A stretch of 64,000 nt of DNA, from NCBI GenBank assembly GCA_045631905.1, contig JAZQVO010000038.1, positions 1,440 through 65,439 on the forward strand, read 5' to 3'. The notes under the pieces were generated by a model. That model was given only the letters and a program-made list of their open reading frames with translations. It did no database searches and was not told where the DNA came from. A program made the translations under genes and the position numbers. The stretch is from Bacteroidaceae bacterium. Lineage in GTDB: Bacteria; Bacteroidota; Bacteroidia; Bacteroidales; Bacteroidaceae. Positions within the stretch are counted from its first letter, which is position 1; each line of letters starts with the position of its first letter. Positions 25,125 to 39,706 of this stretch are shown here, one piece after another.

Positions 25125-25149
25125 GCGAGAATAAGCTACAACATAAAAG

Positions 25150-25171
25150 AACCGTGGTCGCAACCACGGTT
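25150..25171 (+). terminator. Hairpin after the split lipoprotein gene; the last host-like feature before the AT-rich island
   Basis: aaccgtggt / accacggtt forms a 9-bp stem with a 4-nt loop, and has no strong T-tract. Confidence 0.4.
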
Positions 25172-25284
25172 GAACCAAAATATGATTTGTATTTTGCTGA
25201 TTATCAGTAATACAATAACGAAAACTCTACGAATTGATACCATAAAGTTCCAGTTGTTTTTTTATACAGAGTTTTAATGTAAAA

Positions 25285-26166
25285 TTACAATCCCCAGTTT
25301 TTCAAGTTATATGTGGATTCTATGTCTGCTTCAAGGTCATCATCAAGTTCTGAAAAGAAATCAATCCCTGAAATAATCTCTAGGTCATCTACGCTCATCG
25401 CGCACTTCTGCATATTCTCATTGTTATTATGGTTGTACATAACAAATGCTATAGTTTGTCCTCCTGCAAAAATAGCTTTAAAGAATGCGTCTGGTACAAC
25501 AACTTTATTATTTCCTATAGCCCCATATTCATTATTCCATACAAGAGGACCAGTTACTACAGTAACACAGCCATATCGATTAGCCCACTCTCTAACCTTC
25601 TTTTCGAGAGTATTCCATTGACCTGAGTTCAGTGACTGATTCTGAGGACAACAGTTTGTATAGTAGAAAGTCTCAATCATTGCTTGATGACTCCATTTGA
25701 AATCAGCTGCGGGAGCCATGTGACCTTTCGACCATCCTGAATTTTTATAATCATAGTCGTCAGCTTGTGGAAGGTTTGCAGATGGATCTTGACAGAAATT
25801 AAGACCTTTTCTTTAATATGGCCCGTCTGTTTCGGTGGACATGAGTTCATATTTGACCCATTTGGGAATTTTGTATTTGGGATTATATATAACCTCATAT
25901 CCAGCATACGAGATTGTAGGATATTCTTTCTCCTTTATTTTTGTTGGAGTATCAATTGACGGTGTCGCATTGTTTTCCTTTGATACGTCCTTCGTCAGCT
26001 TTCTATAGTCTGCATATGCAGATATAGATTTCTTCTCTTGATTCTCCTCTATCACTAAGGTGTGAACAGAATCCTTTGTTTCAGTATTCGTATAATTGAT
26101 ACATCCGCATACAAAAGTGAGAGAAAGAATACAAGGGATGAAGTACAATATAGATTTTTTAATCAT
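25285..26166 (-). pseudogene. DNA/RNA non-specific endonuclease (NucA/EndoG-type His-Me finger) lipoprotein, interrupted by one in-frame TAA
   Basis: ORFs 25813-26166 and 25285-25719 are in the same frame. My translation across the gap reads ...STETDGPY*RKGLNFCQDPSANLPQADDYDYKNSGWSKGHMAPAADFKWSHQ...CCPQNQSLNSGQWNTLE, which contains the GH catalytic motif and the PQ..N.G.W..LE block. The N-terminus MIKKSILYFIPCILSLTFVCGC is a lipoprotein signal. Confidence 0.75.
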
Positions 26167-26899
26167 TCATTTTGATATTACCAATTATAGGAACTATATG
26201 TATCAAGAATCGCTGATTGAATTTTTCGTAGTCGCTCTTCTTTATTTCTTGGCCAACGACATATTCAGAACTTTGTTTATAGTCCTCTTCTGTAAATCTA
26301 GGCACACCACCTTCTCCACTACCACTGATTACCAATTCACACTTATCCATATTCGAGAAATCTATAGCAGCCTCTTCTTTCCAAAATCTATGTAATGCTA
26401 GTGCTCTTTGGTAACTTAGTACATCATTATTGTAATGTTCATTTGTGTAGTATCCATCAGCAGATGCTTGTCCCTCGATTACAACAAGATATTTAATATC
26501 CTGTTTGATGGATTTGTTGTTTTGTAACGAGGTTATTGTCTTCTGAATTTCTTTTCCTGCATCAACAATCTGTTTTCTTAGTTCGTTTGCAACTATGATA
26601 TTGGTTTTGTCTTCCTCTAGTTCATAAAGACTAAACTTGCCTTTTTGATATGTTACCTGTATACGGAAGATGTGCTTAACAAATTGAGGATTGAACTCAA
26701 AGTATGTAGGGTCAATATTTTCTACAACTTTGTATATAGATTGAATCTCCTCATACTTTTTTACTATTTTTTTTAGCTCCTCTTCTTTGATTCTAAACCT
26801 ACTATAAGAAACAGCAAAGAGAACCACCATAATTGCAAATAAAGTGGTCATAATATCCACATATGTGGTCCAAAATGAATCTTTATTTCTTTGCTTCAT
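26159..26899 (-). CDS. MotB/ZorB-like protein: N-terminal TM helix with a conserved Asp plus an OmpA-like peptidoglycan-binding domain
   Basis: 246 aa. FWTTYVDIMTTLFAIMVVLF resembles the MotB plug/TM segment (the W..YADfMT pattern, Asp at residue 15). VVIEGQASADGYYTNEHYNNDVLSYQRALALHRFW resembles the OmpA/MotB C-domain (the GHTD...N..LS..RA pattern). Confidence 0.75.
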   Translation of the reverse strand: MKQRNKDSFWTTYVDIMTTLFAIMVVLFAVSYSRFRIKEEELKKIVKKYEEIQSIYKVVENIDPTYFEFNPQFVKHIFRIQVTYQKGKFSLYELEEDKTNIIVANELRKQIVDAGKEIQKTITSLQNNKSIKQDIKYLVVIEGQASADGYYTNEHYNNDVLSYQRALALHRFWKEEAAIDFSNMDKCELVISGSGEGGVPRFTEEDYKQSSEYVVGQEIKKSDYEKFNQRFLIHIVPIIGNIKMND

Positions 26900-26904
26900 A
26901 ATTC

Positions 26905-28575
26905 TTATTTCTTACTGCGAAATATTGACCAAATGCTCGGTTTTTCTGAAACATCATTTGGTTGTTTAATATTTTCAGAAGACGTAGCGATCTTTTTGTT
27001 CATTGAATCTAATGCTTGTTTTACACCGTCAAGCTGTCCCAATACTTTTGAAACTTTTTCAGAAACTTCTGGCTGTGTCTTTACATCAGCTTGTATAGAT
27101 GAAAGAAGCGCAATTAACTCTGGTATTTTTCCCAAATTAGATAAATACTTATTTTGAGCCTCAAGGTCTATTGATTTACGTATTTCAGCAATATATTCAT
27201 CACGTTTTGCCTCTACAGCAGACATACATTCCTTTACAATAACTTCGTATGCAGACTTAAAATCATTCATGGCTGATGCAAAGTCATCTCCATGATTATC
27301 AATAGCTGTACAATATTTTTCGTTCAACTGTTTGATCGCTTTTGTTTGAGCCTCATATATGACTTTTAACTCATCATCTGCAAGTTCTTGATATGATACA
27401 GCAAGATCTGTTTTCTTCTGAATAGCAGTTATCTGTTCTTGAATAAGATTCATTTGGCTATTACCAAGCAATTGAGTCTGAGCGATACTTATTCCAAGCG
27501 CATTAAGAGATTCTTCAAATGTAACAATACGATTAAGAATTGTATTAATCTTTTCGAATACTCTTTCAGGAACACTCATCTGTTCAATGAATTTGGATTG
27601 TGAATCAATAAGTTTAATAGAAGAATCTGCTATTTGTTCTTTTATGTCAGACAACTTGACAATTGAAGTTGATACTGAGTCGAATTTTTCAGATGCAGTA
27701 ATGAAACTATCCAAAGTTTTCAACGTTTCTCTCTGCTTCATTGTCTTAAGCAACTGATCTTGCATTCTTACATTTTCATTGATTAGAGACATATTGTCAC
27801 CCATAGTCTCAACAGCATCGGTTAAAAGTCTTACTTTATCGCCAAAAGAATCTCTTAATGTTTCAGTACATTCATTAAAAGCATCTTTAAAATCTCCAAT
27901 AACACCCTTGAATGCTGGTTCGAAAGTGTTTATAGTTCTATGCAATTTATTAAGTGCAGAGACCATACTAGTACCTAGCACTGGCATCAACTTGACCTGA
28001 ATAAAGTCGAAAAATTTATTTTTATCCTCTTCAACTTTTTTAAGTACATTTGCTGCAGTCGCATTTCCCCACATCATAAGGACTAAGCCTATAAGGCTCG
28101 TTACCATTGATACGATAATACCACCAATCAATGCAGATACAATTTCATCTGACACACCTGCTTTATCAACGCCAATTTTGAAACTTTGAAGGCCGATCCA
28201 AACACCAAAAAATGTACCCATCAAACCCAAATAAGTTGGAAATGATACTTTTGAAGTTGCATCCTCATACAAAGCTTCAAGCCTATTCTGAACTTTATCT
28301 TTGATAATTCCAAAATCAGTTGTACCCTCATTCTTTGCCAAGTATTCGTTAATTTCGTTGACTAACTCATTAAGTTTATTAGATGAGTTACCAATCATTA
28401 TTGAATAACCTGTCTCACCTTTTTCTACCTCCCATTTTTGAGAGTTAGGGAAAAAGTTTTTGAATTTACTAAGCTTTCGCAGTGTTGGGATAAATACCCA
28501 CAACTGCAAAATTGCAAAGAATATGATAGAAATCAACGGATTACTATCCAAGAAAAGATATATTTGTTCCATCAA
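26905..28575 (-). CDS. MotA/ExbB/TolQ-family channel protein with a C-terminal helical tail of about 370 aa (ZorA-like)
   Basis: 556 aa. TM1 spans residues 12-32. PTYLGLMGTFFGVWIGLQSF and LIGGIIVSMVTSLIGLVLMMWGN match the ExbB/MotA core (YLGLfGTvwG..., GIa.AL.tTa.GL). Residues about 186-556 are charged, helix-prone and lack TM segments. Confidence 0.75.
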   Translation of the reverse strand: MMEQIYLFLDSNPLISIIFFAILQLWVFIPTLRKLSKFKNFFPNSQKWEVEKGETGYSIMIGNSSNKLNELVNEINEYLAKNEGTTDFGIIKDKVQNRLEALYEDATSKVSFPTYLGLMGTFFGVWIGLQSFKIGVDKAGVSDEIVSALIGGIIVSMVTSLIGLVLMMWGNATAANVLKKVEEDKNKFFDFIQVKLMPVLGTSMVSALNKLHRTINTFEPAFKGVIGDFKDAFNECTETLRDSFGDKVRLLTDAVETMGDNMSLINENVRMQDQLLKTMKQRETLKTLDSFITASEKFDSVSTSIVKLSDIKEQIADSSIKLIDSQSKFIEQMSVPERVFEKINTILNRIVTFEESLNALGISIAQTQLLGNSQMNLIQEQITAIQKKTDLAVSYQELADDELKVIYEAQTKAIKQLNEKYCTAIDNHGDDFASAMNDFKSAYEVIVKECMSAVEAKRDEYIAEIRKSIDLEAQNKYLSNLGKIPELIALLSSIQADVKTQPEVSEKVSKVLGQLDGVKQALDSMNKKIATSSENIKQPNDVSEKPSIWSIFRSKK

Positions 28576-28578
28576 TGA

Positions 28579-31500
28579 TTAAGCCTTATAATTGGTTAAT
28601 TGTAACAATGCATCTGTTACAGGGATAAAGAATAATGTATCGTTATATTGTTCTTGTCCAGAATACACATCAATAATTTCTGTCTGTAACTTTGAATCCA
28701 GAACATCAGCAATGCCATCATTCACAAGTTCGAGAACTTTATCAGCTACGATTTGTCCGCTCACAGCGCCTTTTCTAATTAATAGACCGAGTACTTCTTT
28801 GTAGACATTATTCATAGCCTTAATCTGGCTGATAACATTTGTCTTGATATCAGTTTTGTATTTGCTTACAAGTTCATTCACATCTTCACATTCGTATTCT
28901 GAACCATCTCCATAATACACTACAGATATAGGCTGCTGAGCGCCTTCCTTGTGATATAATCCACCATAGCAAGTACTTTCCTTGCGTATTTCAGGAAGTA
29001 CAAGCTGAATGTCGTTAATCTCTTTTCCAAAGACTCTAGACATTACTAAGTGTGTAATCTCGGTAAGGAGAGTCTCGTTTGAAGTAATATACTGATCTAT
29101 ATAACGGCTACCATTGCCACTGAATGTTATAGTTCTAGGATAGCTTAACTTTTTAGCATTGAGCATAGAAGCCAGATAGTATACTGTTGCTGTAAAATGA
29201 TACGCGAAAGCAAAAGCAAAGTCATTTCTCAGTTTATCTGCAATCTTTGTTTCAACATTGTTGCTAATCCAAAAGTTGATGATATCCTGAGTTGTACTCT
29301 CATTGTTAGAAATCATATGAGAATTTAGACTCTTCAATGAATCAGTATCAAATCCGATTGTATCCTTATATTTATTGTAGATACCATTCTTTTTTGAGTT
29401 CTTGAATTTATCGAATGCGTTGCCCCACATAACATCACAACCAAAGTGTACAGAGTTTGCAATTTTAGGCTCTCCTTTCTGGAAATATACGAAATCAGTA
29501 GATCCTCCTCCAATATCTACGATTGCAACAGACTCAACGCTCTTGTATTCATCTTTAGCGTTGAAGTAGTAATATGGCGCCTCAGACTCAGTATAGCACT
29601 TAATCTGCTCTTTTGTCGATTCAATATTAAGGATATATTTTGCTTCTTCGGTCCAAATCTTTTCAAAGGTAGCTCTCTCGGTTTCTTTGAAGCTGAGTGG
29701 TCTAAACCAAATCACTCCTGTCTTAGAAATAATACCATTTTCCTGAAGAATGTCAGCCTTGATAATCAGCAACAACTCACGAATAAATACTCTGAGACAT
29801 TTTTCATCAGAAGACCATTTGATATTTGTGATAATTCTTTGATTAGCAGCAGGCTTGCTCTTTTCGTAGAAGAAGGCAATATTGCTGTTATCAAAGAGCG
29901 AAAGTTTAGAAGCGTCCTCCCCTGTAAAACACAATGCTGTTCTGATAGGGAATCTATACGCTTTACCGTCAATGTATGGTGGCACAAACTCAGTCTTAAA
30001 TGCAGTCTTAAATACATCAGGAGTATTATTCTCCCAACATAGAACAGGATTCTGCTGAGTGGATCCAGCCTTGTCGTGCAAGTAGCTTACTATTGGCTTA
30101 TCCATAGTAAGTTGCTGCGGCTCGTTCATTTCGCCTTTCTCCTTACGGGAGATATATGTATTTGATGTACCAAAGTCTATTGCGTATTCAAACACCTTAT
30201 CAGACTGTACCGCTATATCCCAAATGGGGAATAATGCAAATGTATAGTCTTTGCTGTCAATCGTCACAGTAGCAAGAACTGCATCAAAATTTGTATTGAA
30301 TACTTCATAAAATTTAGATCCGCAATCTATATTTAATCCCTGCTGTGAGCGGACAAATGCAGGTTTAACACCACTATCAAATGTATTATCGGTTGCTGTT
30401 TCTATAATCTGAAATTTACCTTCACAATCTCGATAGAAATCCAAACTGATATTATTCGCTGTAAATGTTCTTCTATCATTACCATCAAAAGCAGAAACAA
30501 GCACCTTGAAATAATTATTCTCCTCTTTCTTTGTTGATAAGACATTAGGGAATAGTGCTAAATCAAAGTTAACTTTTGCTGTATCAAGAGATATAATTAC
30601 ACCTTCGCCACTTTTTACAGCAGAGGTCTCAGCGCGATATGTCTTTTTAAATTCTTCACCGTTATGTTTGAATATAACTTCTACTGCCTTGTTCTTCTCT
30701 TGACAAACTGCTGTTAAATCTCCTTTTCCGATTACTTCGAATGCCTGTGATGAGAGAGGTATGAGATAATCGTAGTCTCTCTTAGAATTTTCGTTTACAA
30801 ACTCCATTGTCTGGAACTTGCTAGATGACAATCTATAGGGAACCTTGATAATAGCCTCAGAAAAATAATTCAAAGATTTGAGGTCCTTGCTCGTCATCAC
30901 ATTAACGCCGTTGACCTCAATAGCACTATTGTCGTTACTATAGATCGGACTTAATGAGGTGGCTTCCCAATTAGACTTAATTTCTGGATCCGAGTGGAAC
31001 GATTGAATATAGTCTCTAAGCTCATTGTATTTTGCATCAAGGGTGTCTCCATTGCCAAACAAGAAATTATACATATAATTTTTGAAGGCAACAGGACGTT
31101 TGTCAAAAAGCTGAATATCCTGGAAGTATTTGCCTGAGCTTTCTCTGTAAATTGGCCTGAGCGTATGATAATTCTCACCAACAAAAATCATCTTTCTTGC
31201 CGATCCACCTTTCTCGTCATCCTTGACTTCTTTCAAATCCATGTCTGGTGGAGTAATGAAACCTGTAAATGGAGAACTTGTTGCAAGAAGATATTCTTTA
31301 CCGTCTTGTTCAAGAATAATGAAAAAGAGTTTCTTTTCTCCTAAATCATCATTAAAGTAGCTCTCAATTGCAGTACCGAGAATTGGCACTGCAGTTTTAA
31401 GGGTTTTCAAATCATCGTTGTAATTCCACTCTTTAATAACAATCTTAAGACCTGTACCTTGCCATAAATTCTCATGGTAATTTTTGTTATACAGCAGTTC

Positions 31501-31773
31501 GAATACGTCAAGACAGTTAGAAACAAGACGCTCATATGCACGTCCAGCTTGTTTGGTCGGGTTATTTCTTTCTTCTAAGACTCTTCTAAATGCTTCTTTA
31601 AAAATATAGAATCTTGCAAATGGGGTCGGAAGAGCATTCAATGCTCCGCCGTTATCGGTTCTTTGTTCACCGATATTTCCTAAATCTGCAGCCGTTATAC
31701 GTCCTGGACCAGCAGTCCAATTAAACTCTGATGCCGCCCCCCTTTGAATAATATTTAAATCTACACTACTCAT
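28579..31773 (-). CDS. Large protein: unknown N-terminal region of about 520 aa plus a C-terminal Hsp70/actin-fold (ASKHA) ATPase domain
   Basis: 1064 aa. AIDFGTSNT (residues 531-539, phosphate-1), ESEAPYYY (729-736), VDIGGGSTD (752-760, phosphate-2), TFSGNGSRY (883-891, adenosine-type) and ESTCYGG (932-938) occur in the canonical Hsp70/actin order. Confidence 0.65.
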   Translation of the reverse strand: MSSVDLNIIQRGAASEFNWTAGPGRITAADLGNIGEQRTDNGGALNALPTPFARFYIFKEAFRRVLEERNNPTKQAGRAYERLVSNCLDVFELLYNKNYHENLWQGTGLKIVIKEWNYNDDLKTLKTAVPILGTAIESYFNDDLGEKKLFFIILEQDGKEYLLATSSPFTGFITPPDMDLKEVKDDEKGGSARKMIFVGENYHTLRPIYRESSGKYFQDIQLFDKRPVAFKNYMYNFLFGNGDTLDAKYNELRDYIQSFHSDPEIKSNWEATSLSPIYSNDNSAIEVNGVNVMTSKDLKSLNYFSEAIIKVPYRLSSSKFQTMEFVNENSKRDYDYLIPLSSQAFEVIGKGDLTAVCQEKNKAVEVIFKHNGEEFKKTYRAETSAVKSGEGVIISLDTAKVNFDLALFPNVLSTKKEENNYFKVLVSAFDGNDRRTFTANNISLDFYRDCEGKFQIIETATDNTFDSGVKPAFVRSQQGLNIDCGSKFYEVFNTNFDAVLATVTIDSKDYTFALFPIWDIAVQSDKVFEYAIDFGTSNTYISRKEKGEMNEPQQLTMDKPIVSYLHDKAGSTQQNPVLCWENNTPDVFKTAFKTEFVPPYIDGKAYRFPIRTALCFTGEDASKLSLFDNSNIAFFYEKSKPAANQRIITNIKWSSDEKCLRVFIRELLLIIKADILQENGIISKTGVIWFRPLSFKETERATFEKIWTEEAKYILNIESTKEQIKCYTESEAPYYYFNAKDEYKSVESVAIVDIGGGSTDFVYFQKGEPKIANSVHFGCDVMWGNAFDKFKNSKKNGIYNKYKDTIGFDTDSLKSLNSHMISNNESTTQDIINFWISNNVETKIADKLRNDFAFAFAYHFTATVYYLASMLNAKKLSYPRTITFSGNGSRYIDQYITSNETLLTEITHLVMSRVFGKEINDIQLVLPEIRKESTCYGGLYHKEGAQQPISVVYYGDGSEYECEDVNELVSKYKTDIKTNVISQIKAMNNVYKEVLGLLIRKGAVSGQIVADKVLELVNDGIADVLDSKLQTEIIDVYSGQEQYNDTLFFIPVTDALLQLTNYKA

Positions 31774-31784
31774 AGCCTTATGTC

Positions 31785-33179
31785 TTAGATGGTTTTGGTG
31801 TATTCAGTTATTCCCTCGTATGCAAAATCAAGCAAATATCTCAATGTATTATCGTGCTCGGTTTTGTCCTTCTTGTTACCAGCTTCAATCATCTTAAGAA
31901 GATAGTATGATTCATCCTTCGCTTTCAAGGTAATTCCTTTCACTATATTTGAAAGCTTTTCACCTTTGAGTATTTTATTAAGCGGTGAAAAACCTCTATT
32001 GTTTTCAGATAGTTCTACATACCAATTATGGTATTGATTTACAAAAGTTTTAAGTGCCCCAAAAGGTTGGTCTTGGTAGAAATCTTTATTCAAACCTCTC
32101 GTTTTCTTCAGTGGAAAACGTCTTTCTGTTGGTAGGATATCCAAAAGCAGATCAAAAATCATCATATTAGCAATATCTTTGACCATAGGTTTATAACCTT
32201 CGCCCAAAGAGGACATATCTAGTGCATCAACATTTTCACGTATTGCCCTAGTCATTGCTTGTGGAGTATCTGGAGTCGGTCTGCCTAAGAAATCAAAAAG
32301 TGCAGATGCTGCAACTAACTCAACAAGGTGTGCCGTATCTTTCTGTTCTTTTTCATTGTTCTTATAATTTGCTCTTAAGCTTTGTTCGCCCACATAATAA
32401 AGGAAGTCAGACTTGACGCTCTTCTCATAATAGCTAAGCGCAGCCTTTGTCTTTGTATAGAAGTTTGATGAATCAATGTCACTTCCTGAGGTCGTTGGGT
32501 CATCAAGAGAGTAGTATGGCAACACTGTTACTGCTCCCATAACAGCACTCTGTACCTGAGGATGGGCTTGGTCGTCTCTAATCTTTTTCTCAAGAAGTGG
32601 ATAACCTGATGCGCCAGTTCCACCAAAAATTGAACTAATAATAAATATCCTGTCACCCTTTTCGCAGTGTCTGCGGAATGCATCGTACCAATCGGCACCG
32701 CTTATCATTTCGTTGAGAACTACTGTACCTACATTGGGGTTACCTTTAAAGCCAACCGAAAGACTATTGTTAAGATTCTCTTGTGAATATAATGTCTGAA
32801 TCAAGAATTTATTCACGTCATTATTCGCCAGTTTGCCAACATTAAGATATTGTCCGAATGTTTTTTTCTCAGCCATGCTAGTACTTACACTATTTTGCTG
32901 ATTGTCGAGATCTTCCAATCTTATAATCTTAGTATTAAAGAAGCCTGATGGAGCAGATAATTGTTGTGCTCTGTCTGTTGTCGCGTTCTTATACACTTTG
33001 ATATAGTCTCCAATTGTTGTGGTAAGGATAGCGTTCTCTTCCAAATCAACATGGGGATCTATTATAACAGGAACAATATCATAGCCGCTAGTTCTCATGC
33101 CAGCAGCTGCCATCATCACAACAGACTTCATTACGCGAAGCCCTGTGCCACCTATACAAAAAACAAAAACTTTTGCCAT
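31785..33179 (-). CDS. FtsZ/tubulin-superfamily GTPase-like protein (divergent)
   Basis: 464 aa. VFCIGGTGLRV (T1-like, residues 6-16), GFKGNPNVG (residues 143-151, compare the FtsZ T3 GAGANPEVG) and FGGTGASG (residues 185-192, compare the tubulin signature GGGTG[ST]G). Confidence 0.7.
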   Translation of the reverse strand: MAKVFVFCIGGTGLRVMKSVVMMAAAGMRTSGYDIVPVIIDPHVDLEENAILTTTIGDYIKVYKNATTDRAQQLSAPSGFFNTKIIRLEDLDNQQNSVSTSMAEKKTFGQYLNVGKLANNDVNKFLIQTLYSQENLNNSLSVGFKGNPNVGTVVLNEMISGADWYDAFRRHCEKGDRIFIISSIFGGTGASGYPLLEKKIRDDQAHPQVQSAVMGAVTVLPYYSLDDPTTSGSDIDSSNFYTKTKAALSYYEKSVKSDFLYYVGEQSLRANYKNNEKEQKDTAHLVELVAASALFDFLGRPTPDTPQAMTRAIRENVDALDMSSLGEGYKPMVKDIANMMIFDLLLDILPTERRFPLKKTRGLNKDFYQDQPFGALKTFVNQYHNWYVELSENNRGFSPLNKILKGEKLSNIVKGITLKAKDESYYLLKMIEAGNKKDKTEHDNTLRYLLDFAYEGITEYTKTI

Positions 33180-33181
33180 AA

Positions 33182-33634
33182 CTATTTGCCTAATTTAAGG
33201 AATCTGTACGCATTAGTTGATACAGGTAAATTACAGATAATAAATGATGTTATAAAATAGATAGCAGATGCGTATAACCCATTTATTAATGATATCCTCA
33301 ATATGAAACCAACTTGCTCTTTGAGAGTTGACGAAACCATCGCATTGCCTAAAATCATTGTTAACCCTATCGTAGCGACAACTGTTATTACTAACCAGAT
33401 TACCCAATGGCGTATTCTGTATTTTCTTCCTGGAAGTTTGTTGTAGCCATAATAATAATAGCAAACAACTACAACAGCAACAGCAATGGCTGTAGCAAGA
33501 AAATACATACTAGCAGAGTCAAGGCTATTCCAAAGAGATCGAGCCATATTGTAAAGAGGCTCATTATCCTTATACCTAACCAGGTGCTCAGCCTGATTTG
33601 GCAACCCCCAATCATACAAATTAAGCATTCCCAT
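33182..33634 (-). CDS. Small integral membrane protein (about 3 TM), unknown family
   Basis: 150 aa. The hydrophobic segments are YFLATAIAVAVVVVCYYYY, WVIWLVITVVATIGLTMILG and LINGLYASAIYFITSFIIC. It is separated by 2 nt from both neighbouring genes. Confidence 0.55.
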   Translation of the reverse strand: MGMLNLYDWGLPNQAEHLVRYKDNEPLYNMARSLWNSLDSASMYFLATAIAVAVVVVCYYYYGYNKLPGRKYRIRHWVIWLVITVVATIGLTMILGNAMVSSTLKEQVGFILRISLINGLYASAIYFITSFIICNLPVSTNAYRFLKLGK

Positions 33635-33636
33635 AA

Positions 33637-34920
33637 TTATTGCTTTATTTTAGATATTAATATTCTATTTGGTGTTTCATCCCAGTGATTCTGAATTGCA
33701 TTGAATACACCAGATACAAATCTATCAACAGAGAATGACCCTGTGTAATCATTCTCTGCTGTTGCAGACATTATATTAGTGAAGTCAAGCGTAACAGAGT
33801 AGTCTGGATGGTTTAATGTCCATTCAATGACATCTGATTCAGTGAACATGTTGTAAATTTTAAGTTCTACTTTCGCGGTTGCTTTTCTCTTCAATTCTTT
33901 GTTGAAATGATTGTTTACGTCGATAGAAACCCTTTCTATGCTTACTGATGAGCCGTAACATGATTTTACAGCAAGACTTTCTTTGAAAGCATCTTCGTTA
34001 GTAATTAACCAGCGGAAGTTGCTTAAGTCAATATTTAATACCACTTTACAAGTATCAGAATACTGAACATCAAAGTTTGTAAATGTAGGTTGGTCAACAA
34101 ATTGAAGAGCATTGTCTGGAATACCAAACGAATAAATTGGAGCTTTGTAGTCAAATCCAATTTCAATACAATCACCGTAATCACCATAGTCTTCCAAGAG
34201 TGTAGCAATGCTGTTTCTCATGAAAGCAACATTTTTATCCTTTCCAAGAATCAAAAAATAATAAGGGGAATCTTCTGTAAGTGTACTTCCATTAGCGGCT
34301 AAAAAATCCGATTTGGCCATGATTAAGCTAACCGCCAATCCAGGATACTTGCCAATTACATTGCGAATGTCTGTTTGATATTGTGTAAGCAAAACCTTGA
34401 CATCCTTTTGTTTTTCAGGGCTATACTTCATATCTGAAATTAGAACAGCGCATTGTCCCTCATCAAACCTTAGATTCTCTAGAATAGATTTAAGCATAGT
34501 AGGAACAAGTGTTTCTTGATTGCTCACAAAAGCACCAGAATTCATTTTTGCCCTAAAATCGTTTACAGAATATGTACCTGCAACAGTACCTGCATTAGAA
34601 AGTATGCTAACATCATTGCCTCCAAAATTGGACACTATTGACCATACGTCCTTCTTAAATCGAGTTGCTTTATTGGATCTAAAGAAACCATTCATGCTAC
34701 CACTAACCTCAACATAAAATCCGAGAGCAGAAGGTTTTTCTACAGAGAAAGACTCTTTAATAGAGTCTAGACAATATCCATCGTCTGTAAAATGTGGATC
34801 AGATACTGTGTTAACTGGGTCACAAGAAGAAAGCAGCAAAATCCCAGAGAGCATTATCAAAGCAACAGATAGCTTATTCTTAACCCTGATCAAAATACTG
34901 CAGCACATACTTAAATCCAT
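33637..34920 (-). CDS. vWA-like lipoprotein (degenerate MIDAS ExSxS) with an unknown beta-rich C-terminal region
   Basis: 427 aa. Lipobox LLLSSC (Cys33). GFYVEVSGSMNGFF at residues 67-80 resembles vWA beta1-MIDAS (DxSxS, with Glu in place of Asp). AVLISDMKY resembles the beta4 Asp segment. Confidence 0.5.
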   Translation of the reverse strand: MDLSMCCSILIRVKNKLSVALIMLSGILLLSSCDPVNTVSDPHFTDDGYCLDSIKESFSVEKPSALGFYVEVSGSMNGFFRSNKATRFKKDVWSIVSNFGGNDVSILSNAGTVAGTYSVNDFRAKMNSGAFVSNQETLVPTMLKSILENLRFDEGQCAVLISDMKYSPEKQKDVKVLLTQYQTDIRNVIGKYPGLAVSLIMAKSDFLAANGSTLTEDSPYYFLILGKDKNVAFMRNSIATLLEDYGDYGDCIEIGFDYKAPIYSFGIPDNALQFVDQPTFTNFDVQYSDTCKVVLNIDLSNFRWLITNEDAFKESLAVKSCYGSSVSIERVSIDVNNHFNKELKRKATAKVELKIYNMFTESDVIEWTLNHPDYSVTLDFTNIMSATAENDYTGSFSVDRFVSGVFNAIQNHWDETPNRILISKIKQ

Positions 34921-34968
34921 AATATTATTTGTTGTCTTATAAATTTACAAATTATCTATACCATTAGA

Positions 34969-34995
34969 GGGAATCTCTCATTATGAGAATCCCAA
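34969..34995. repeat. Left inverted repeat (IR-L) upstream of the island operon
   Basis: gggaatctctcattatgagaatcccaa. The reverse complement of 35174-35200 is ggggttctctcattatgagaatcccaa, identical at 25 of 27 positions. Confidence 0.8.
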
Positions 34996-35158
34996 AACTC
35001 AACTCATACTATAAGTCAGGTAATTACAAGAATCACATATCTATTTGCTTTGTGCCAATTAAGGAAACCAAACAGAGAATACCTATAGCAAAAGTTCTAA
35101 AAATGCAATAAGACAACGATTTATTTGCCAAAAATGAGATAATTTTAAATAAAATCTG

Positions 35159-35166
35159 TAATTTTG
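35159..35166 (+). promoter_or_regulatory. Consensus -7 box TAATTTTG inside the IR-bounded segment, currently pointing away from the operon
   Basis: This is an exact TAnnTTTG match 8 nt inside IR-R. No exact match on the operon strand was found between IR-R and the operon ATG. Confidence 0.35.
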
Positions 35167-35173
35167 CAATAAA

Positions 35174-35200
35174 TTGGGATTCTCATAATGAGAGAACCCC
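35174..35200. repeat. Right inverted repeat (IR-R)
   Basis: ttgggattctcataatgagagaacccc, the inverted partner of 34969-34995. The outer ends span 232 bp. Confidence 0.8.
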
Positions 35201-35327: not shown

Positions 35328-36566
35328 CTAATTCAAAAGGTAATCAAATACATTCATCATTATAATGCCATTGGGCATAGTATGCGTTGGTATGTCATCT
35401 GTTGTGATAATAATTTTTGTAAAAGAGTCGTCTGTTAGGGTTAGTGAGCGTTGTTCCTGCTTCTGTTTGTCTTCATCTGGCAAAGAATAAGCAGATTGTA
35501 TATACACCCTTTCACTACCTCTATTACAAACGAAATCAACCTCAAGTGTGGTTCTGGTAGTCTTACCTTCATCATCTTTTTGATATAAAGTAACGCAGCC
35601 TACATCTACCTTATAGCCTTTACCTATCAAATGGTTATATATGATATTCTCCATAATATGAGTAGGTTCAACTTGTCGGAAATTCAAAAGTGCATTACGC
35701 AACCCAAGATCAGCAAAATAATATTTGTAAGGAGTATCTATATACTTCTTTCCTTTAATATCATAGCGTACTGCTTTATTGATGAGGAAAGAATCAATAA
35801 AATAGTCTATATATGTTTTTATTGTATTGTGGCTTATTTTCACCTTTTTCTCACTAACAAATGTGTTTGCTAGTTTGTTGGGATTAGTCAATGCTCCTAT
35901 ATTAGATGCCAAGAGAGAGAATAATTCTTCTAATTCTGCATCATTTTTCACATTATTGCGGTCGATTATATCGCTTAAATATGTTTCTTTAAGTAACTCA
36001 TGAAGTATTTCTGCTTTTCGTGCTTTATCCTTCTCAATGACAACCATTGGTAACCCTCCATAATAAATATAATCTCGCCACAATGAAGATGTGTCATCAT
36101 TTGACTTTTCTTTTATTTCCTTAAACGATAGCGGCTGAAGGTGGATTTGAACTCCTCTTCCTCTGAATTCAGTAACGATATCAGAAGAAAGGAACTTTGC
36201 ATTACTTCCTGTTACATATACATCAAGGTTATCTATGTGTAGAAAACCATTGAGTACATCTACGAAATCCTCCAGCATCTGAACTTCGTCAATCATCACA
36301 TAATACATCTGCGAATCTTGCTTTGTCAGATTTTCGATATATTCATATAAAGTTTCTGCCTTGCGATATTTACGATGAACAAATGAGTCAAGTCTTATTT
36401 CGATGATATGGCTGGTATCAGCACCATTATCTAAAAGATGTTGTTTATAAAGGTTGAGTAGCAGATAAGATTTGCCAACACGTCGTAACCCAGTAACAAT
36501 CTTTATCAAATGATTATGCTTGCTACTTATCAACTTTTCAATGTAATGTTTTCTTTCGAATTTCAT
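35328..36566 (-). CDS. AAA-family ATPase (AAA_14 / DUF4143-type)
   Basis: 412 aa. The Walker A is GLRRVGKSYLL and the Walker B-like segment is YYVMIDEVQ. The C-terminal region is typical of DUF4143 proteins common on Bacteroides mobile DNA. Confidence 0.7.
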   Translation of the reverse strand: MKFERKHYIEKLISSKHNHLIKIVTGLRRVGKSYLLLNLYKQHLLDNGADTSHIIEIRLDSFVHRKYRKAETLYEYIENLTKQDSQMYYVMIDEVQMLEDFVDVLNGFLHIDNLDVYVTGSNAKFLSSDIVTEFRGRGVQIHLQPLSFKEIKEKSNDDTSSLWRDYIYYGGLPMVVIEKDKARKAEILHELLKETYLSDIIDRNNVKNDAELEELFSLLASNIGALTNPNKLANTFVSEKKVKISHNTIKTYIDYFIDSFLINKAVRYDIKGKKYIDTPYKYYFADLGLRNALLNFRQVEPTHIMENIIYNHLIGKGYKVDVGCVTLYQKDDEGKTTRTTLEVDFVCNRGSERVYIQSAYSLPDEDKQKQEQRSLTLTDDSFTKIIITTDDIPTHTMPNGIIMMNVFDYLLN

Positions 36567-36576
36567 ATAGATACAA

Positions 36577-36680
36577 TTTTTGTGTATTTACACAGTTTTC
36601 GTCTGCAAATATAATAGTTTAATCACAAATCAAGCACGAAACCCGAGACATTTTTTGTGTATTTACACACTTTTTGTCTG
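36577..36680. repeat. Two 29-nt direct repeats with a palindromic core, between the integrase and ATPase genes
   Basis: 36577-36605 is tttttgtgtatttacacagttttcgtctg and 36652-36680 is tttttgtgtatttacacactttttgtctg, identical at 27 of 29 positions. The core tgtgta-tt-tacaca is palindromic. Confidence 0.8.
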
Positions 36681-36692
36681 TAGTGCCATTGA

Positions 36693-37886
36693 TTACCATT
36701 CCCCCAATGCAGCCAAAATCTCACTATTGGCATTATCCACTGCTGAAGTATCAAGCGTAGAAAGGTATATAAGTGTAGTCTTTTCGGAGTCATGGCCGAG
36801 GGCATCACTGATGACGCTAATCGGAATCTGCTTCTGCTTGGCTATGCTTGCCCAGCTGTGACGAGCCACATACAATGTCAAGGGTATCGACAACTGAGCC
36901 ATTTCTCCAACCAGCCGTAAATGACGATTGATACGTTTGGATAGTTTCTTGTAAGTTTGCCTGTCATCAGCATCATTCGTGAGTATGGGCAACAAGTATT
37001 TGGTATCTTTGGGATATTTGTCGATGATAGTTTGCATCTGCTGTTCCCAACGAATATCCAATCGTCCACCAGTTTTCTTGCGATAATATGTCAAGTGTCC
37101 ACCTCGAAGATTATCATAAGTCAGGTATGCCATATCAATGAATGACATTCCTCTGAGGCCAAGACTCAACAAAAAAATATCCCTTGCATATGATAGATGC
37201 GGATATAGCCTCAAATCCAAATCCTTGATTCTTTTGATGGCATCAATATCAATTGCTCTTTTTACTGTTTGGGCAATACCCGTATATACACTTTGGAATG
37301 GAGCTACGGCTTCAACAAGATGCAATTTTACTGCTTTGTTAAGTACGGTTCTCAGCGTCCGCATATAAAAGGAAATGCTGTTCATGGTTAGGTTTCTGTT
37401 CTTTAAGTAACGTTCATAATCTTCCATGACTTCTGCTGTAATCTCATAGAGCATAATATCTTCATCGTTATTGAACTTGATGAAACTATGCAAGGCGGAT
37501 ATATATGTCTCACTTGTTCGTGTACGTCCCATATCTGCCAAACGTTCAGCTTGAGATAACAGAAAACCAGAGAAAGACTGCTGGCGATTCAATTCTTCAA
37601 ATTTAGATATAATGCATCCAAAATCTAAAGGCGTTCCTTTTTTAATATGTCGTTTGGCGATGGCATATATTTGTTGCATCTCCCAATCGGTCCGATTCTT
37701 GATTTTGATGAGTGAGCTGCTGTCGGTAAGTAATCGACCGTGTTGTTTATCCCATTCATTGGGGTAAATTCGATAACCAGATGCATAAGTGTGCGTTGTC
37801 CGCTTAATGATTATCTGGTAATAAAGCATACCATCATTACCCTTGATGGCTGAAGGACGATAACATAACTTGACTGATACTCCCAT
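36693..37886 (-). CDS. Tyrosine site-specific recombinase/integrase
   Basis: 397 aa. The N-terminal SAM-like region and the C-terminal catalytic region ARHSWASIA...ALGHDSEKTTLIYL supply the R-H-R-Y family residues. Confidence 0.85.
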   Translation of the reverse strand: MGVSVKLCYRPSAIKGNDGMLYYQIIIKRTTHTYASGYRIYPNEWDKQHGRLLTDSSSLIKIKNRTDWEMQQIYAIAKRHIKKGTPLDFGCIISKFEELNRQQSFSGFLLSQAERLADMGRTRTSETYISALHSFIKFNNDEDIMLYEITAEVMEDYERYLKNRNLTMNSISFYMRTLRTVLNKAVKLHLVEAVAPFQSVYTGIAQTVKRAIDIDAIKRIKDLDLRLYPHLSYARDIFLLSLGLRGMSFIDMAYLTYDNLRGGHLTYYRKKTGGRLDIRWEQQMQTIIDKYPKDTKYLLPILTNDADDRQTYKKLSKRINRHLRLVGEMAQLSIPLTLYVARHSWASIAKQKQIPISVISDALGHDSEKTTLIYLSTLDTSAVDNANSEILAALGEW

Positions 37887-37888
37887 AA

Positions 37889-39031: not shown

Positions 39032-39040
39032 CTATATCTC

Positions 39041-39700: not shown

Positions 39701-39706
39701 TAAAAT

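What the first reader, a model, noticed from the sequence alone, without database searches (positions are those of the whole stretch)
26159..34920. Six-gene island operon combining a ZorAB-like motor, an FtsZ/tubulin-like GTPase, an Hsp70/actin-fold giant protein and a vWA-like lipoprotein: candidate undescribed Zorya-related system
Seen in the sequence: six minus-strand genes are packed with gaps of 2, 2, 11, 3 and 5 nt (34920->26159) inside an AT-rich island. In transcription order they encode: (1) a lipoprotein with a vWA-like EVSGS/ISD pattern; (2) a 150-aa protein with about 3 TM segments; (3) a 464-aa protein with FtsZ/tubulin T1, T3 and T4-like motifs; (4) a 1064-aa protein whose C-terminal half carries the ordered Hsp70/actin phosphate-1, phosphate-2 and adenosine motifs; (5) a MotA/ExbB-core protein with a helical tail of about 370 aa; (6) a MotB-like protein with a TM Asp and an OmpA-type peptidoglycan-binding domain. 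Established knowledge: a MotA-like protein with a long tail paired with a PG-anchored MotB-like protein is the hallmark of the Zorya anti-phage system. In Zorya, ZorAB pairs with ZorCD, ZorE or ZorFG. Bacteroidales are not flagellated, and ExbD/TolR lack OmpA domains. Inference: this is a ZorAB-type envelope sensor/motor wired to different partners. An FtsZ-like plus actin/Hsp70-like pair recalls FtsZ-FtsA, and the vWA lipoprotein would face the envelope. I know of no named defence or cytoskeletal system with this composition, but I cannot search databases here.
Basis: partly seen in the sequence, partly recalled or inferred. Interest (0 to 1): 0.93.

Follow-up and report, generated by a model that had tools for sequence, protein, structure and literature searches.

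The report
Phase-variable ZorAB–tubulin–actin-fold envelope system
A mobile gut-Bacteroidales island carries a conserved seven-gene operon joining a Zorya-type envelope motor to a tubulin-like GTPase, a giant actin/Hsp70-fold ATPase and a secreted nuclease; it is probably an uncharacterised defence-type system, and it is switched off in this strain.

Summary
All six minus-strand ORFs lie at the stated coordinates with the stated gaps, inside a low-GC block. The same gene order recurs in all 155 related loci I recovered.

Four fold calls hold:
- g3 is tubulin/FtsZ.
- The C-terminal half of g4 is ASKHA.
- g5 is closest to ZorA.
- g6 is closest to ZorB.

The vWA call for g1 rests only on a conserved ExSGSM...SD motif.

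- A seventh gene encodes a lipoprotein Endonuclease_NS that overlaps g6. It carries a nonsense mutation here and is intact in a 99.5%-identical contig.
- A 27-bp-inverted-repeat promoter switch sits upstream of g1. It is OFF here and ON in that contig.
- The operon rides a 13.9-kb block with an integrase and a relaxase remnant.
- Related operons were predicted before: FtsZl1-vWA-MotA/OmpA (2010) and tubulin/vWA/HSP70 conflict systems (2020).

No Zorya effector (ZorC–G) is present, and I found no paper describing this composition.

My best reading (confidence 0.45) is an envelope-triggered conflict system with swappable lipoprotein hydrolase effectors. A defence function is inferred, not shown. 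I class it as a new variant of a known kind.

The parts
35174..35200 (.). Distal 27-nt inverted-repeat arm of the promoter inverton
   Evidence: the repeat finder I1: 27 nt, 93% complementary to 34969-34995, with 178 nt between the arms. The segment between the arms is inverted in the 99.5%-identical contig L076.
34996..35173 (.). Invertible segment. It carries a Bacteroides-type -7 box, TAATTTTG, at 35159-35166 on the + strand, facing away from g1, which is the OFF orientation.
   Evidence: The motif scan finds the only TAnnTTTG in the intergenic region, on the + strand. In L076 the same box lies on the operon strand 91 nt upstream of the g1 ATG, which is the ON orientation.
34969..34995 (.). 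Proximal 27-nt inverted-repeat arm, 49 nt upstream of the g1 start
33637..34920 (-). g1: 427-aa lipoprotein with a MIDAS-like ExSGSM...SD motif. It is possibly a vWA fold and is extracytoplasmic.
   Evidence: One N-terminal hydrophobic segment ends in a lipobox Cys33, which is nearly invariant. S73, G74, S75, M76, G78 and D163 are invariant in 29 diverse homologues. There is no Pfam vWA hit in any of the 29 and no PDB profile hit. hhalign against a Thermus vWA protein aligns the MIDAS strand only weakly (E=0.0024, probability 12%).
33182..33634 (-). g2: 150-aa inner-membrane protein with about 3 TM segments
   Evidence: Hydropathy analysis. Found between g1 and g3 in 134 loci. No family match.
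31785..33179 (-). g3: 464-aa divergent tubulin/FtsZ-superfamily GTPase, cytoplasmic
   Evidence: The T1 GGTG, T3-like GFKGNPNxG and T4 GGTGxxG motifs are invariant in 56 sequences at 29-54% identity. Pfam Tubulin matches 50 of 56 and Tubulin_2 matches 45 of 56 family members. All 17 PDB profile hits are FtsZ/CetZ. The AF2 model has pTM 0.83, and all top 50 Foldseek PDB hits are FtsZ/tubulin, best E=8.9e-5. The family has 1878 clusters at 50% identity.
28579..31773 (-). g4: 1064-aa cytoplasmic protein. The N-terminal half (about 50-520) is alpha/beta plus beta-rich with no detectable relatives. The C-terminal half (about 525-1064) is an ASKHA (actin/Hsp70/Ppx) ATPase.
   Evidence: AF2 gives pLDDT 84.7 and pTM 0.73. 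Foldseek PDB finds MreB, ParM, Hsp70 NBD and Ppx/GppA at E down to 2.9e-8. BFVD finds Hsp70 and actin-like proteins. Pfam Ppx-GppA scores 26.4 bits against a cut-off of 27. D533/G535/T536, D753/G756/G757/D760 and G886/N887/G888/S889 are invariant.
26905..28575 (-). g5: ZorA-like MotA/ExbB-family channel subunit (3 TM) with a helical cytoplasmic tail of about 375 aa
   Evidence: The top two PDB hits of the family profile are ZorA chains. The four NCBIfam ZorA models are among the most frequent family hits (10, 6, 3 and 2 of 25 members, best 4.5e-8), all far below their cut-offs. Pfam MotA_ExbB scores E=4.7e-3. P113, G117, G120, T121 and G124 are invariant. The tail is low in Pro/Gly and matches coiled-coil proteins.
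26159..26899 (-). g6: ZorB-like MotB-family subunit with a plug, one TM carrying Asp15, and an OmpA-type peptidoglycan-binding domain
   Evidence: PADLOC ZorB E=6.8e-11. The family profile matches Shewanella type I ZorB 8VVN_B at 3.6e-10 over its full length and E. coli ZorB 8QYD_F at 3.5e-5 (the identity of 8VVN comes from PMC11890865). D15 is nearly invariant.
25285..26166 (-). g7: lipoprotein DNA/RNA non-specific endonuclease. It overlaps g6 by 8 nt and is interrupted here by one in-frame TAA at 25813-25815.
   Evidence: Pfam Endonuclease_NS E=6.8e-35 for the distal part. tblastn shows a single frame with one stop. L076 has a Ser codon at that position and an intact 293-aa protein. The family lies downstream on the same strand in 53 of 122 loci and directly adjacent in 20.
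25150..25171 (-). Terminator-like hairpin after g7. It coincides with the end of the block shared with L076.
35328..38998 (-). Co-transferred neighbours: an AAA_14/DUF4143 ATPase (35328-36566), a tyrosine recombinase (36693-37886) and a Mob_Pre relaxase remnant (37889-38998)
   Evidence: Pfam and PADLOC PDC-S01 E=6.6e-115. The block 25163-39028 is shared with L076 while the flanks differ.

Best explanation
This is a seven-gene, envelope-spanning conflict system. It is most likely anti-phage or anti-mobile-DNA immunity, carried as cargo on a 13.9-kb integrative, formerly mobilisable element.

Shown:
- A ZorA-like/ZorB-like pair sits next to two cytoplasmic NTPases, one of the tubulin/FtsZ fold and one of the ASKHA fold.
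- An extracytoplasmic lipoprotein with a MIDAS-like motif and a small 3-TM protein complete the conserved core.
- The slot after g6 is variable. It holds lipoprotein hydrolases (Endonuclease_NS or trypsin-like peptidases) or a DUF4357-repeat protein.
- In this lineage an invertible promoter lies upstream of the operon.

Inferred mechanism:
- As in Zorya, the peptidoglycan-anchored g6 dimer and a g5 pentamer would form an ion-driven stator that responds to envelope damage.
- Movement of the long g5 tail would be read by g3 and g4, whose conserved GTP and ATP sites point to nucleotide-dependent assembly at the membrane. g2 would serve as the anchor.
- This assembly would act as a threshold and localising device.
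- The output would be relayed across the membrane through g2 and g1 to the envelope-located hydrolase. Alternatively, the assembly itself would seal or remodel the entry site.

In this strain the system is silenced twice: the promoter is OFF and the nuclease carries a nonsense codon. That fits a costly, self-damaging function.
For: - Fold and family assignments.
- Rigid six-gene synteny in 155 loci.
- Swappable genes after g6: Endonuclease_NS in 53 loci, a DUF4357 protein in 36, an unknown 269-aa family in 19, and trypsin-like lipoproteins in 7+6. Kaur et al. 2020 describe variable effectors as a feature of the related predicted conflict systems.
- Mobile, low-GC block with an integrase and a relaxase remnant, shared with L076 in different flanks.
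- Neighbours across loci include AbiE, Abi_2/AbiD, MADS, ZacC and several PADLOC candidate systems, plus integrases. The adjacent gene here matches PDC-S01.
- Related FtsZl1/vWA operons sit next to BrxL and CHAT/caspase genes.
- Phase-variable promoter and a nonsense allele of the nuclease.
- The ZorAB sensing model comes from PMC11890865.
Against: - There are no experimental data.
- PADLOC recognises nothing except g6, and every ZorA/ZorB score is far below the curated family cut-offs.
- The hydrolases carry lipoprotein signals, so they are outside the cytoplasm. Zorya effectors act in the cytoplasm.
- The nuclease is present in only 53 of 122 loci, so it may be a frequent neighbour rather than the effector.
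- Neighbour genes are a mixture with many housekeeping genes, and I did no enrichment statistics.
- The g1-g4 core also exists without ZorAB, so the motor is an add-on rather than the defining sensor.
- Makarova and Koonin proposed membrane remodelling, not immunity, for the related operons.
- Polymerisation of g3 and g4 is not shown. Foldseek TM-scores for g3 are low (0.25-0.40), and no T7 catalytic loop could be identified.
Confidence: 0.45

Rival explanations
1. It is an envelope-remodelling, vesicle or export machine rather than an immune system. The proton-driven ZorAB-like stator and the two cytoskeleton-type NTPases would reshape the inner membrane or envelope. They would do this to release outer-membrane vesicles or to deliver or activate lipoprotein hydrolases at the surface, for nutrient scavenging, biofilm DNA turnover or competition.
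For: - Makarova and Koonin (PMC2875224) proposed membrane remodelling and vesicle biogenesis for FtsZl1 + vWA + MotA/OmpA operons of similar syntax, such as DR_0540-DR_0536.
- The associated hydrolases are lipoproteins.
- In Bacteroidota another member of the MotA/ExbB superfamily, PorL/GldL, is the motor protein of the type IX secretion system (family name as in NCBIfam). GldL is a weak hit for 3 g5 homologues.
- From my own knowledge, Bacteroides invertons often control surface structures. An inverton is present here.
Against: - The patchy, mobile-element-borne distribution and highly variable flanks (612 neighbour clusters for 907 ORFs) are unusual for a housekeeping envelope function.
- g5/g6 are closer to ZorAB than to ExbBD, PorLM or MotAB.
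- Defence and toxin-antitoxin genes recur nearby.
- No outer-membrane channel or secretin is part of the cassette.
Confidence: 0.28
2. It is an inter-bacterial antagonism or self-killing (abortive) module. Envelope stress would trigger release or activation of periplasmic nuclease or protease toxins, with g3/g4 as regulators. The target would be competitors or the cell itself, not incoming DNA specifically.
For: - Lipoprotein nuclease and trypsin-like effectors vary between loci.
- The nuclease is inactivated and the promoter is OFF in this strain, which suggests toxicity.
Against: - No cognate immunity gene was identified next to the hydrolases. The small DUF6804 gene and the 160-aa lipoprotein gene downstream occur in only 16 and 10 loci.
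- Over half of the loci lack any recognisable hydrolase.
Confidence: 0.12
3. It is a maintenance or segregation apparatus of the mobile element. The tubulin-like protein (TubZ-type) and the actin-like protein (ParM-type) would act as cytomotive filaments that partition or position element DNA.
For: - g4 hits a PHROG 'partition protein' family (phrog_691, E=4.1e-5) and ParM structures.
- g3/g4 homologues occur on cyanobacterial plasmids.
- The operon lies on a mobile block.
Against: - No centromere-binding adaptor gene (TubR/ParR-like) is among the operon genes, and no iteron array appears among the direct repeats found in 24000-43000.
- The element is integrated and needs no partition.
- Four of the seven proteins are membrane or periplasmic.
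- The ZorAB-like motor and the lipoprotein hydrolases have no role in partition.
- There are no homologues in phage genomes.
Confidence: 0.05

Closest known systems
Zorya anti-phage systems, types I-III (ZorAB plus ZorCD, ZorE or ZorFG); structures 8QYD/8QYK (E. coli) and 8VVN (Shewanella sp. ANA-3)
   Same: - g5 has a MotA-type channel core of 3 TM segments plus a long helical cytoplasmic tail.
- g6 has a MotB plug, a TM Asp and an OmpA-like peptidoglycan-binding domain.
- ZorA and ZorB are the best PDB, PADLOC and NCBIfam matches for g5 and g6.
- The operon is mobile-element or island borne.
   Different: - No ZorC, D, E, F or G is present.
- Scores are far below the curated ZorA/ZorB cut-offs (15 bits against 100, 18.8 against 400).
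- The partners are a tubulin-like GTPase, an ASKHA giant, a lipoprotein and a 3-TM protein.
- The candidate effectors are extracytoplasmic lipoproteins.
- The host range is Bacteroidota, whereas the Zorya surveys report Proteobacteria and Campylobacter (PMC11890865).
FtsZl1 (Pfam Tubulin_2) - vWA - MotA/OmpA operons of Makarova and Koonin 2010, for example D. radiodurans DR_0540-DR_0536, D. deserti plasmid 2 and Cyanothece 8802
   Same: - The gene syntax matches: [~420-480 aa protein][~110-150 aa small protein][tubulin-superfamily GTPase][MotA-like][OmpA/MotB-like].
- The g5 HMM detects the D. deserti MotA-like protein (E=7.5e-6).
- g3 homologues score about equally on Tubulin_2 and Tubulin.
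- The function of both is unknown.
   Different: - FtsZl1 proteins are about 1000 aa with a coiled coil and a helical C-terminal domain. g3 is 464 aa with neither.
- The g3 HMM does not detect D. deserti FtsZl1, and hhalign aligns only the T4 loop (probability 6%).
- The earlier operons contain no ASKHA protein, and here there is no GTPase, kinase or LRR partner.
- The g1 and g6 HMMs do not detect the Deinococcus counterparts.
GTPase-centric 'tubulin/HSP70' biological conflict systems (Kaur, Burroughs, Iyer and Aravind 2020, PMC7159879)
   Same: - Both combine tubulin-superfamily proteins, extracytoplasmic vWA proteins and, in a separate theme, HSP70-fold proteins.
- Both show variable effectors, and NTP-dependent multimerisation is proposed as a threshold device.
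   Different: - Those systems are defined by GAP1-N2 GTPases and FNIII-repeat proteins and occur in Firmicutes and Actinobacteria. Neither component is present here.
- MotA does not occur in that paper's text at all, and OmpA occurs only once, in a different (iSTAND) system.
- Tubulin and HSP70 belong to separate themes there, not to one operon.
Cytoskeletal NTPase pairs and filaments: FtsZ-FtsA (divisome), TubZ and ParM (plasmid segregation), MreB
   Same: - The folds of g3 and of the C-terminal half of g4 match.
- The nucleotide-binding motifs are conserved.
   Different: - There is no FtsZ_C or Tubulin_C domain, and no T7 loop could be identified.
- g4 carries an unrelated N-terminal region of about 520 aa.
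- No DNA-binding adaptor is present.
- The genes are accessory and mobile, not core cell-cycle genes.

Membership tests
Zorya (types I-III) | ZorA: a MotA/ExbB-type channel subunit with a long C-terminal helical tail | tested here: met
   The architecture is met: 3 TM segments plus a tail of about 375 aa. The top PDB hits are ZorA chains (8QYK_A and 8VVN_C, E about 1.5e-3). ZorA models are the most frequent NCBIfam hits among 25 homologues.
Zorya (types I-III) | The proteins pass the curated ZorA/ZorB family model cut-offs | tested here: not met
   NCBIfam antiphage_ZorA_2 scores 15.2 bits against a cut-off of 100. ZorB1 scores 18.8 bits against 400. PADLOC reports no ZorA model hit for g5.
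Zorya (types I-III) | ZorB: a MotB-like protein with a plug, a TM Asp and a peptidoglycan-binding domain | tested here: met
   PADLOC ZorB E=6.8e-11. 8VVN_B matches at 3.6e-10 over its full length. D15 is nearly invariant.
Zorya (types I-III) | Signature partner genes ZorC+ZorD, ZorE or ZorF+ZorG next to ZorAB | tested here: not met
   PADLOC gives no hit for g1-g4 or g7. Their folds are tubulin, ASKHA, lipoprotein and Endonuclease_NS.
Zorya (types I-III) | Demonstrated protection against phage that depends on ion flux through ZorAB | not testable with these tools
   This needs expression and phage challenge.
FtsZl1/vWA 'membrane remodelling' operons (Makarova and Koonin 2010) | An FtsZl1 protein: an N-terminal Tubulin_2 domain, an extended coiled coil and a helical C-terminal domain (about 900-1100 aa) | tested here: not met
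   g3 is 464 aa with no coiled coil. Tubulin_2 matches only below threshold, in 45 of 56 homologues. The g3 HMM and hhalign do not recover D. deserti FtsZl1 beyond the T4 loop.
FtsZl1/vWA 'membrane remodelling' operons (Makarova and Koonin 2010) | An adjacent vWA-domain protein with a MIDAS motif | tested here: inconclusive
   g1 has an invariant xSGSM and an SD motif. There is no Pfam vWA hit in 29 homologues and no PDB hit. hhalign against a bona fide operon vWA protein gives E=0.0024 at 12% probability, and against another gives nothing.
FtsZl1/vWA 'membrane remodelling' operons (Makarova and Koonin 2010) | An OmpA-family partner, with or without a MotA-like partner | tested here: met
   g5 and g6. 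The same pairing appears in DR_0537/DR_0536 and Deide_2p00790/00800.
GTPase-centric tubulin/HSP70 conflict systems (Kaur et al. 2020) | A GAP1-N2 / DO-type TRAFAC GTPase as the core component | tested here: not met
   Pfam and NCBIfam report no P-loop GTPase match for any operon protein.
Tubulin/FtsZ superfamily (g3) | GTP-binding loops T1, T3 and T4, and the tubulin/FtsZ fold | tested here: met
   The motifs are invariant. Pfam matches. All PDB profile hits are FtsZ/CetZ. All top 50 Foldseek hits are FtsZ/tubulin.
Tubulin/FtsZ superfamily (g3) | A T7 catalytic loop and a longitudinal polymerisation interface | tested here: inconclusive
   No NxDxxD/E-like T7 motif is recognisable after the predicted H7 helix. 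Polymerisation cannot be assessed here.
ASKHA superfamily (g4, C-terminal half) | Phosphate-1, phosphate-2 and adenosine motifs on an actin/Hsp70 fold | tested here: met
   DFGTSNT, DIGGGSTD and GNGS are invariant. Foldseek finds MreB, ParM and Hsp70 at E about 3e-8.
Bacteroidales invertible promoter (inverton) | Inverted repeats flanking a promoter-bearing segment that is found in both orientations | tested here: met
   The inverted repeats are 27 nt long. The orientations are opposite in the window and in L076. A TAATTTTG -7 box lies inside the segment, facing away from g1 here and towards g1 in L076. The recombinase responsible was not tested. A tyrosine recombinase gene lies 1.5 kb away.

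The most novel reading that the evidence does not exclude
This is a new class of bacterial immune system. A Zorya-type, peptidoglycan-anchored ion motor would sense envelope breach and mechanically trigger co-assembly of a tubulin-like GTPase and a giant actin/Hsp70-fold ATPase beneath the entry site. That cytoskeleton-based signalling platform would then gate extracytoplasmic nuclease or protease effectors through a vWA-like lipoprotein. Phase variation would spread the cost across the population.
Probability: 0.25. Interest if true: 0.9.

Novelty: new variant of a known kind. Interest (0 to 1): 0.7.

Why it matters
- Both kinds of system it joins are poorly understood. Zorya's signal transduction from motor to effector is only partly understood. 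The FtsZl1/vWA operons, predicted in 2010 and again in 2020, have never been tested experimentally.
- The operon is abundant in human and ruminant gut Bacteroidales. Near-identical copies occur on hundreds of metagenome contigs, and the tubulin-like family has about 1,900 clusters at 50% identity.
- It places a ZorAB-type motor, a tubulin-fold GTPase and an actin-fold ATPase in one compact cassette that could be moved into an experimental host.
- If it is a defence system, it would show prokaryotic cytoskeletal NTPases acting as immune signalling modules, and it would widen the set of partners known for ZorAB motors.
- If it is an envelope-remodelling machine, it would confirm a 15-year-old prediction.
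- The natural ON/OFF inverton and the nonsense allele of the nuclease provide ready-made genetic handles.

Tried and rejected
- PADLOC, NCBIfam, Pfam and PHROGs on all operon proteins gave only weak or sub-threshold hits. No named defence system matched apart from ZorB-like g6.
- The vWA test for g1 was negative or marginal: Pfam on 29 homologues, a PDB profile search, and hhalign against two operon-linked vWA proteins. I could not spend a structure job on g1.
- I tested whether g3 is a truncated FtsZl1. The profile against D. deserti FtsZl1 aligned only the T4 loop, so I rejected membership.
- I tested whether B. caccae FtsZl1 from the 2010 paper is the same system. It is not: that protein is 913 aa with different neighbours.
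- The N-terminal half of g4 gave no significant relative by PDB sequence profile, Foldseek PDB or BFVD.
- A phage origin for g3 is not supported. There is no tblastn match in 50,697 phage records.
- The inverton is not a general feature of the family. Only 9 of 120 loci have comparable inverted repeats upstream of g1, against 2 of 110 controls, so it is lineage-specific.
- I looked for att-like direct repeats bounding the island and found none convincing.
- Literature searches for ZorAB with FtsZ or tubulin, and for 'Zorya-like', found nothing relevant.
- The sigma-70 promoter scan was not informative for Bacteroides.

Full report
**1. Observation**

| Gene | Coordinates | Length |
|---|---|---|
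| g1 | 33637-34920 | 427 aa |
| g2 | 33182-33634 | 150 aa |
| g3 | 31785-33179 | 464 aa |
| g4 | 28579-31773 | 1064 aa |
| g5 | 26905-28575 | 556 aa |
| g6 | 26159-26899 | 246 aa |

- The gaps between them are 2, 2, 11, 3 and 5 nt.
- GC content is 0.33-0.39 across about 25-38 kb, against 0.45-0.52 in the flanks.
- The g5 ORF as listed begins at a TTG, and that exact sequence is absent from the protein collection. The true start is probably the next codon, an ATG.

**2. Is the arrangement more than chance?**

- The tubulin-like protein g3 has more than 3,000 close homologues.
- A profile search finds 1,878 representatives at 50% identity with E≤1e-3, and 527 with E≤1e-30. Almost all are 460-520 aa.
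- I fetched 75 loci from species-representative genomes and 80 from metagenomes. Most are Bacteroidales, plus Pedobacter.
- I mapped family HMMs of the six proteins onto these loci. The order g1-g2-g3-g4-g5-g6 is fixed in every locus.
- 108 loci are complete. The remainder are truncated by contig ends.
- Median intergenic distances are 3-5 nt.
- This holds down to 34-40% identity of g3 (L068, L135-L155).
- One subclade has an extra lipoprotein/TM gene of about 300 aa between g4 and g5.

**3. Fold assignments**

*g3 (tubulin/FtsZ superfamily)*
- In 56 sequences at 29-54% identity, the T1 GGTG, a T3-like GFKGNPNxG and the T4 GGTGxxG are invariant.
- 50 of 56 members hit Pfam Tubulin and 45 of 56 hit Tubulin_2.
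- All 17 PDB profile hits are FtsZ/CetZ.
- The AF2 model has pTM 0.83. All of its top 50 Foldseek hits are FtsZ or tubulins, best E=8.9e-5, although the TM-scores are low.
- g3 is a very divergent member of the tubulin/FtsZ superfamily. I could not identify a T7 loop.

*g4 (ASKHA in the C-terminal half)*
- The AF2 model has pLDDT 84.7 and pTM 0.73.
- Residues about 525-1064 match MreB, ParM, the Hsp70 NBD and Ppx/GppA at E down to 2.9e-8. Viral Hsp70 and actin-like proteins also match.
- The phosphate-1, phosphate-2 and adenosine motifs are invariant.
- The N-terminal region of about 520 aa (alpha/beta plus beta-rich) has no detectable relative.

*g5 (ZorA-like)*
- It has three TM segments and a low-Pro/Gly tail of about 375 aa.
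- The top two PDB hits of its family profile are ZorA of E. coli (8QYK) and of Shewanella (8VVN_C).
- The four NCBIfam ZorA models are among the most frequent hits across homologues, ahead of ExbB and GldL. All are far below the curated cut-offs.

*g6 (ZorB-like)*
- PADLOC ZorB gives E=6.8e-11.
- The profile matches Shewanella type I ZorB (8VVN_B) at 3.6e-10 over its full length, and E. coli ZorB at 3.5e-5. The identity of 8VVN comes from PMC11890865.
- Asp15 is nearly invariant.

*g1 (lipoprotein, vWA unverified)*
- It has a signal peptide and a conserved Cys33, so it is a lipoprotein.
- It carries an invariant xSGSM and an SD motif.
- No Pfam vWA hit appears in 29 homologues, and there is no PDB hit.
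- The only support is a weak hhalign match of the MIDAS strand to a genuine vWA protein (E=0.0024, probability 12%).
- The vWA label stays unverified.

*g2*
- It has about 3 TM segments.

**4.

*(a) A seventh gene*
- Coordinates 25285-26166 encode a lipoprotein DNA/RNA non-specific endonuclease that overlaps g6 by 8 nt.
- In the window it is a single reading frame broken by one TAA at 25813-25815.
- In L076, a metagenome contig 99.5% identical across the operon, the codon encodes Ser and the protein is an intact 293 aa.

*(b) A variable slot after g6*
- Endonuclease_NS occurs in 53 of 122 loci.
- A cytoplasmic DUF4357-repeat protein occurs in 36.
- An unknown 269-aa family occurs in 19.
- Trypsin-like lipoprotein peptidases occur in 7+6.
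- DUF6804 occurs in 16.

*(c) An invertible promoter*
- 27-nt inverted repeats at 34969-34995 and 35174-35200 flank 178 nt.
- L076 carries this segment in the opposite orientation.
- The only Bacteroides-type -7 box (TAATTTTG, 35159-35166) faces away from g1 in the window. In L076 it faces g1, 91 nt upstream of the ATG.
- The window copy is therefore OFF.
- Comparable inverted repeats occur upstream of g1 in only 9 of 120 other loci, so the switch is lineage-specific.

*(d) A mobile block*
- The block 25163-39028 contains the operon, an AAA_14/DUF4143 gene (PADLOC PDC-S01), a tyrosine recombinase and a Mob_Pre remnant.
- It is shared with L076, and the flanks are unrelated.
- A terminator-like hairpin sits at the shared boundary.

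**5. Wider family**

- tblastn against plasmids shows the g3-g4 pair, preceded by g1/g2-sized genes, on cyanobacterial plasmids and in Prevotella oral taxon 299.
- There it is followed by coiled-coil/TM proteins instead of ZorAB.
- The ZorAB-like motor is thus a module coupled to a g1-g4 core in the large clade sampled here, not a universal component.

**6. Prior knowledge**

- Makarova and Koonin 2010 (PMC2875224) defined FtsZl1 (now Pfam Tubulin_2).
- They listed operons such as D. radiodurans DR_0540 (478 aa) - DR_0539 (109 aa) - DR_0538 (FtsZl1, 1070 aa) - DR_0537 (MotA/TolQ/ExbB) - DR_0536 (OmpA), and Cyanothece vWA - FtsZl1 - B7 - 'flagellar motor protein'. They proposed a membrane-remodelling role.
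- I retrieved the D. deserti copy. The g5 HMM detects its MotA-like protein (7.5e-6). The g3, g1 and g6 HMMs do not detect their counterparts, and hhalign aligns only the T4 loop.
- Kaur et al. 2020 (PMC7159879) reinterpreted the tubulin/vWA neighbourhoods, and separately the HSP70 ones, as GTPase-centric conflict systems. MotA does not occur in that paper's text.
- FtsZl1/vWA operons on plasmids sit beside BrxL and CHAT/caspase genes.
- Zorya had three recognised subtypes as of 2025.
- Searches for ZorAB with FtsZ or tubulin, or for 'Zorya-like', found nothing.
- The window's proteins are annotated only as 'hypothetical' in the sources.

**7. Interpretation**

Shown:
- The operon is a conserved, horizontally mobile seven-gene unit.
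- It encodes a ZorAB-like stator, two cytoplasmic NTPases of the tubulin and actin/Hsp70 folds with intact nucleotide sites, two envelope proteins, and a swappable, mostly extracytoplasmic hydrolase.
- In this lineage expression is phase-variable.

Inferred:
- It is a conflict system in which the stator reports envelope perturbation, and the NTPases provide nucleotide-dependent assembly or thresholding.
- The output is either the lipoprotein hydrolase or membrane sealing or remodelling.
- The double silencing here (promoter OFF, nonsense nuclease) fits a costly function.
- Defence and toxin-antitoxin genes and integrases recur among the otherwise very variable neighbours. I did not quantify enrichment.

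The main rival is the membrane-remodelling, vesicle or export reading. The lipoprotein nature of the hydrolases makes it a serious alternative. Partition of the element is unlikely.

**8. Verdict**

- The operon is not a member of Zorya types I-III, because the signature partners are absent and the model cut-offs are not met.
- It is not a member of the FtsZl1 operons as defined, because the architecture differs.
- It is not one of Kaur's GTPase-centric systems, because no GAP1 GTPase is present.
- It works most like a hybrid of these three.
- I class it as a new variant of a known, computationally predicted kind.
- Interest is high (0.7) because it is abundant in the gut, uncharacterised, and comes with natural genetic switches.

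Noticed in passing
window 34969-35200: An invertible promoter (inverton) lies upstream of g1. It has 27-nt inverted repeats flanking 178 nt, and the segment is inverted in the 99.5%-identical contig L076. The only TAnnTTTG box faces away from the operon here (OFF) and towards it in L076 (ON).
   Followed up: yes
window 25285-26166 (stop codon at 25813-25815): The lipoprotein Endonuclease_NS gene overlaps g6 by 8 nt. It carries a single in-frame TAA here, while L076 has a Ser codon and an intact 293-aa protein. In this strain it is a natural nonsense allele of the likely effector.
   Followed up: yes
window 25163-39028: This 13.9-kb block holds the operon, an AAA_14/DUF4143 gene, a tyrosine recombinase and an N-terminally truncated Mob_Pre relaxase. 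It is shared with L076, whose flanks match nothing in the window, so it looks like a mobile or recently transferred element. The operon part is 99.5% identical and the recombinase part 96.5%. I found no att-like direct repeats.
   Followed up: partly
window 35328-36566: An AAA_14 + DUF4143 ATPase lies immediately upstream of the operon. It matches the PADLOC candidate defence family PDC-S01 (E=6.6e-115). A 92%-identical copy lies just downstream of the cassette in L037, on the opposite strand, and related AAA_14 genes flank it in 9 loci.
   Followed up: partly
window 36570-36605 and 36645-36680: Two 36-nt direct repeats (89% identical, 75 nt apart), each containing an internal palindrome, lie in the intergenic region between the AAA_14 gene and the tyrosine recombinase gene. 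They could be a regulatory or recombinase-binding site.
   Followed up: no
L141-L155 (e.g. L141:6896-7795); L071:14883-17361: A subclade of the system carries one extra gene between g4 and g5 (two in L071). The product has a lipoprotein signal, a coiled coil, a TM segment and a conserved C-terminal domain. It has no family match.
   Followed up: partly
L014:17133-18560, L064:16948-18456 and 34 other loci: A cytoplasmic protein with 2-3 repeats of a DUF4357-like motif (CxSPSxAAxxVLG...W) sits directly after g6 and before the nuclease in 36 loci. Only the last repeat reaches the Pfam DUF4357 threshold.
   Followed up: partly
L157 (Gloeothece plasmid Cy782204), L158 (Picosynechococcus plasmid), L159 (Prevotella oral taxon 299): The g3-g4 pair, preceded by g1/g2-sized genes, occurs without the ZorAB-like genes. 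It is followed by coiled-coil, TM or zinc-ribbon proteins, which suggests alternative membrane partner modules.
   Followed up: partly
window 28579-31773, residues ~40-60 and ~160-180 of g4: Two short, strictly conserved N-terminal patches (LPTPFARF and SSPxTGFITPPD) are also picked up in the cyanobacterial g4-like protein. The first patch lies in a low-pLDDT region. They could be docking peptides.
   Followed up: no
window 39041-41917: Just beyond the shared block lie a DUF1963 protein (39041-39700) and two proteins with no Pfam match (538 aa and 188 aa). They sit between the block and SecA. I did not investigate their origin or function.
   Followed up: no
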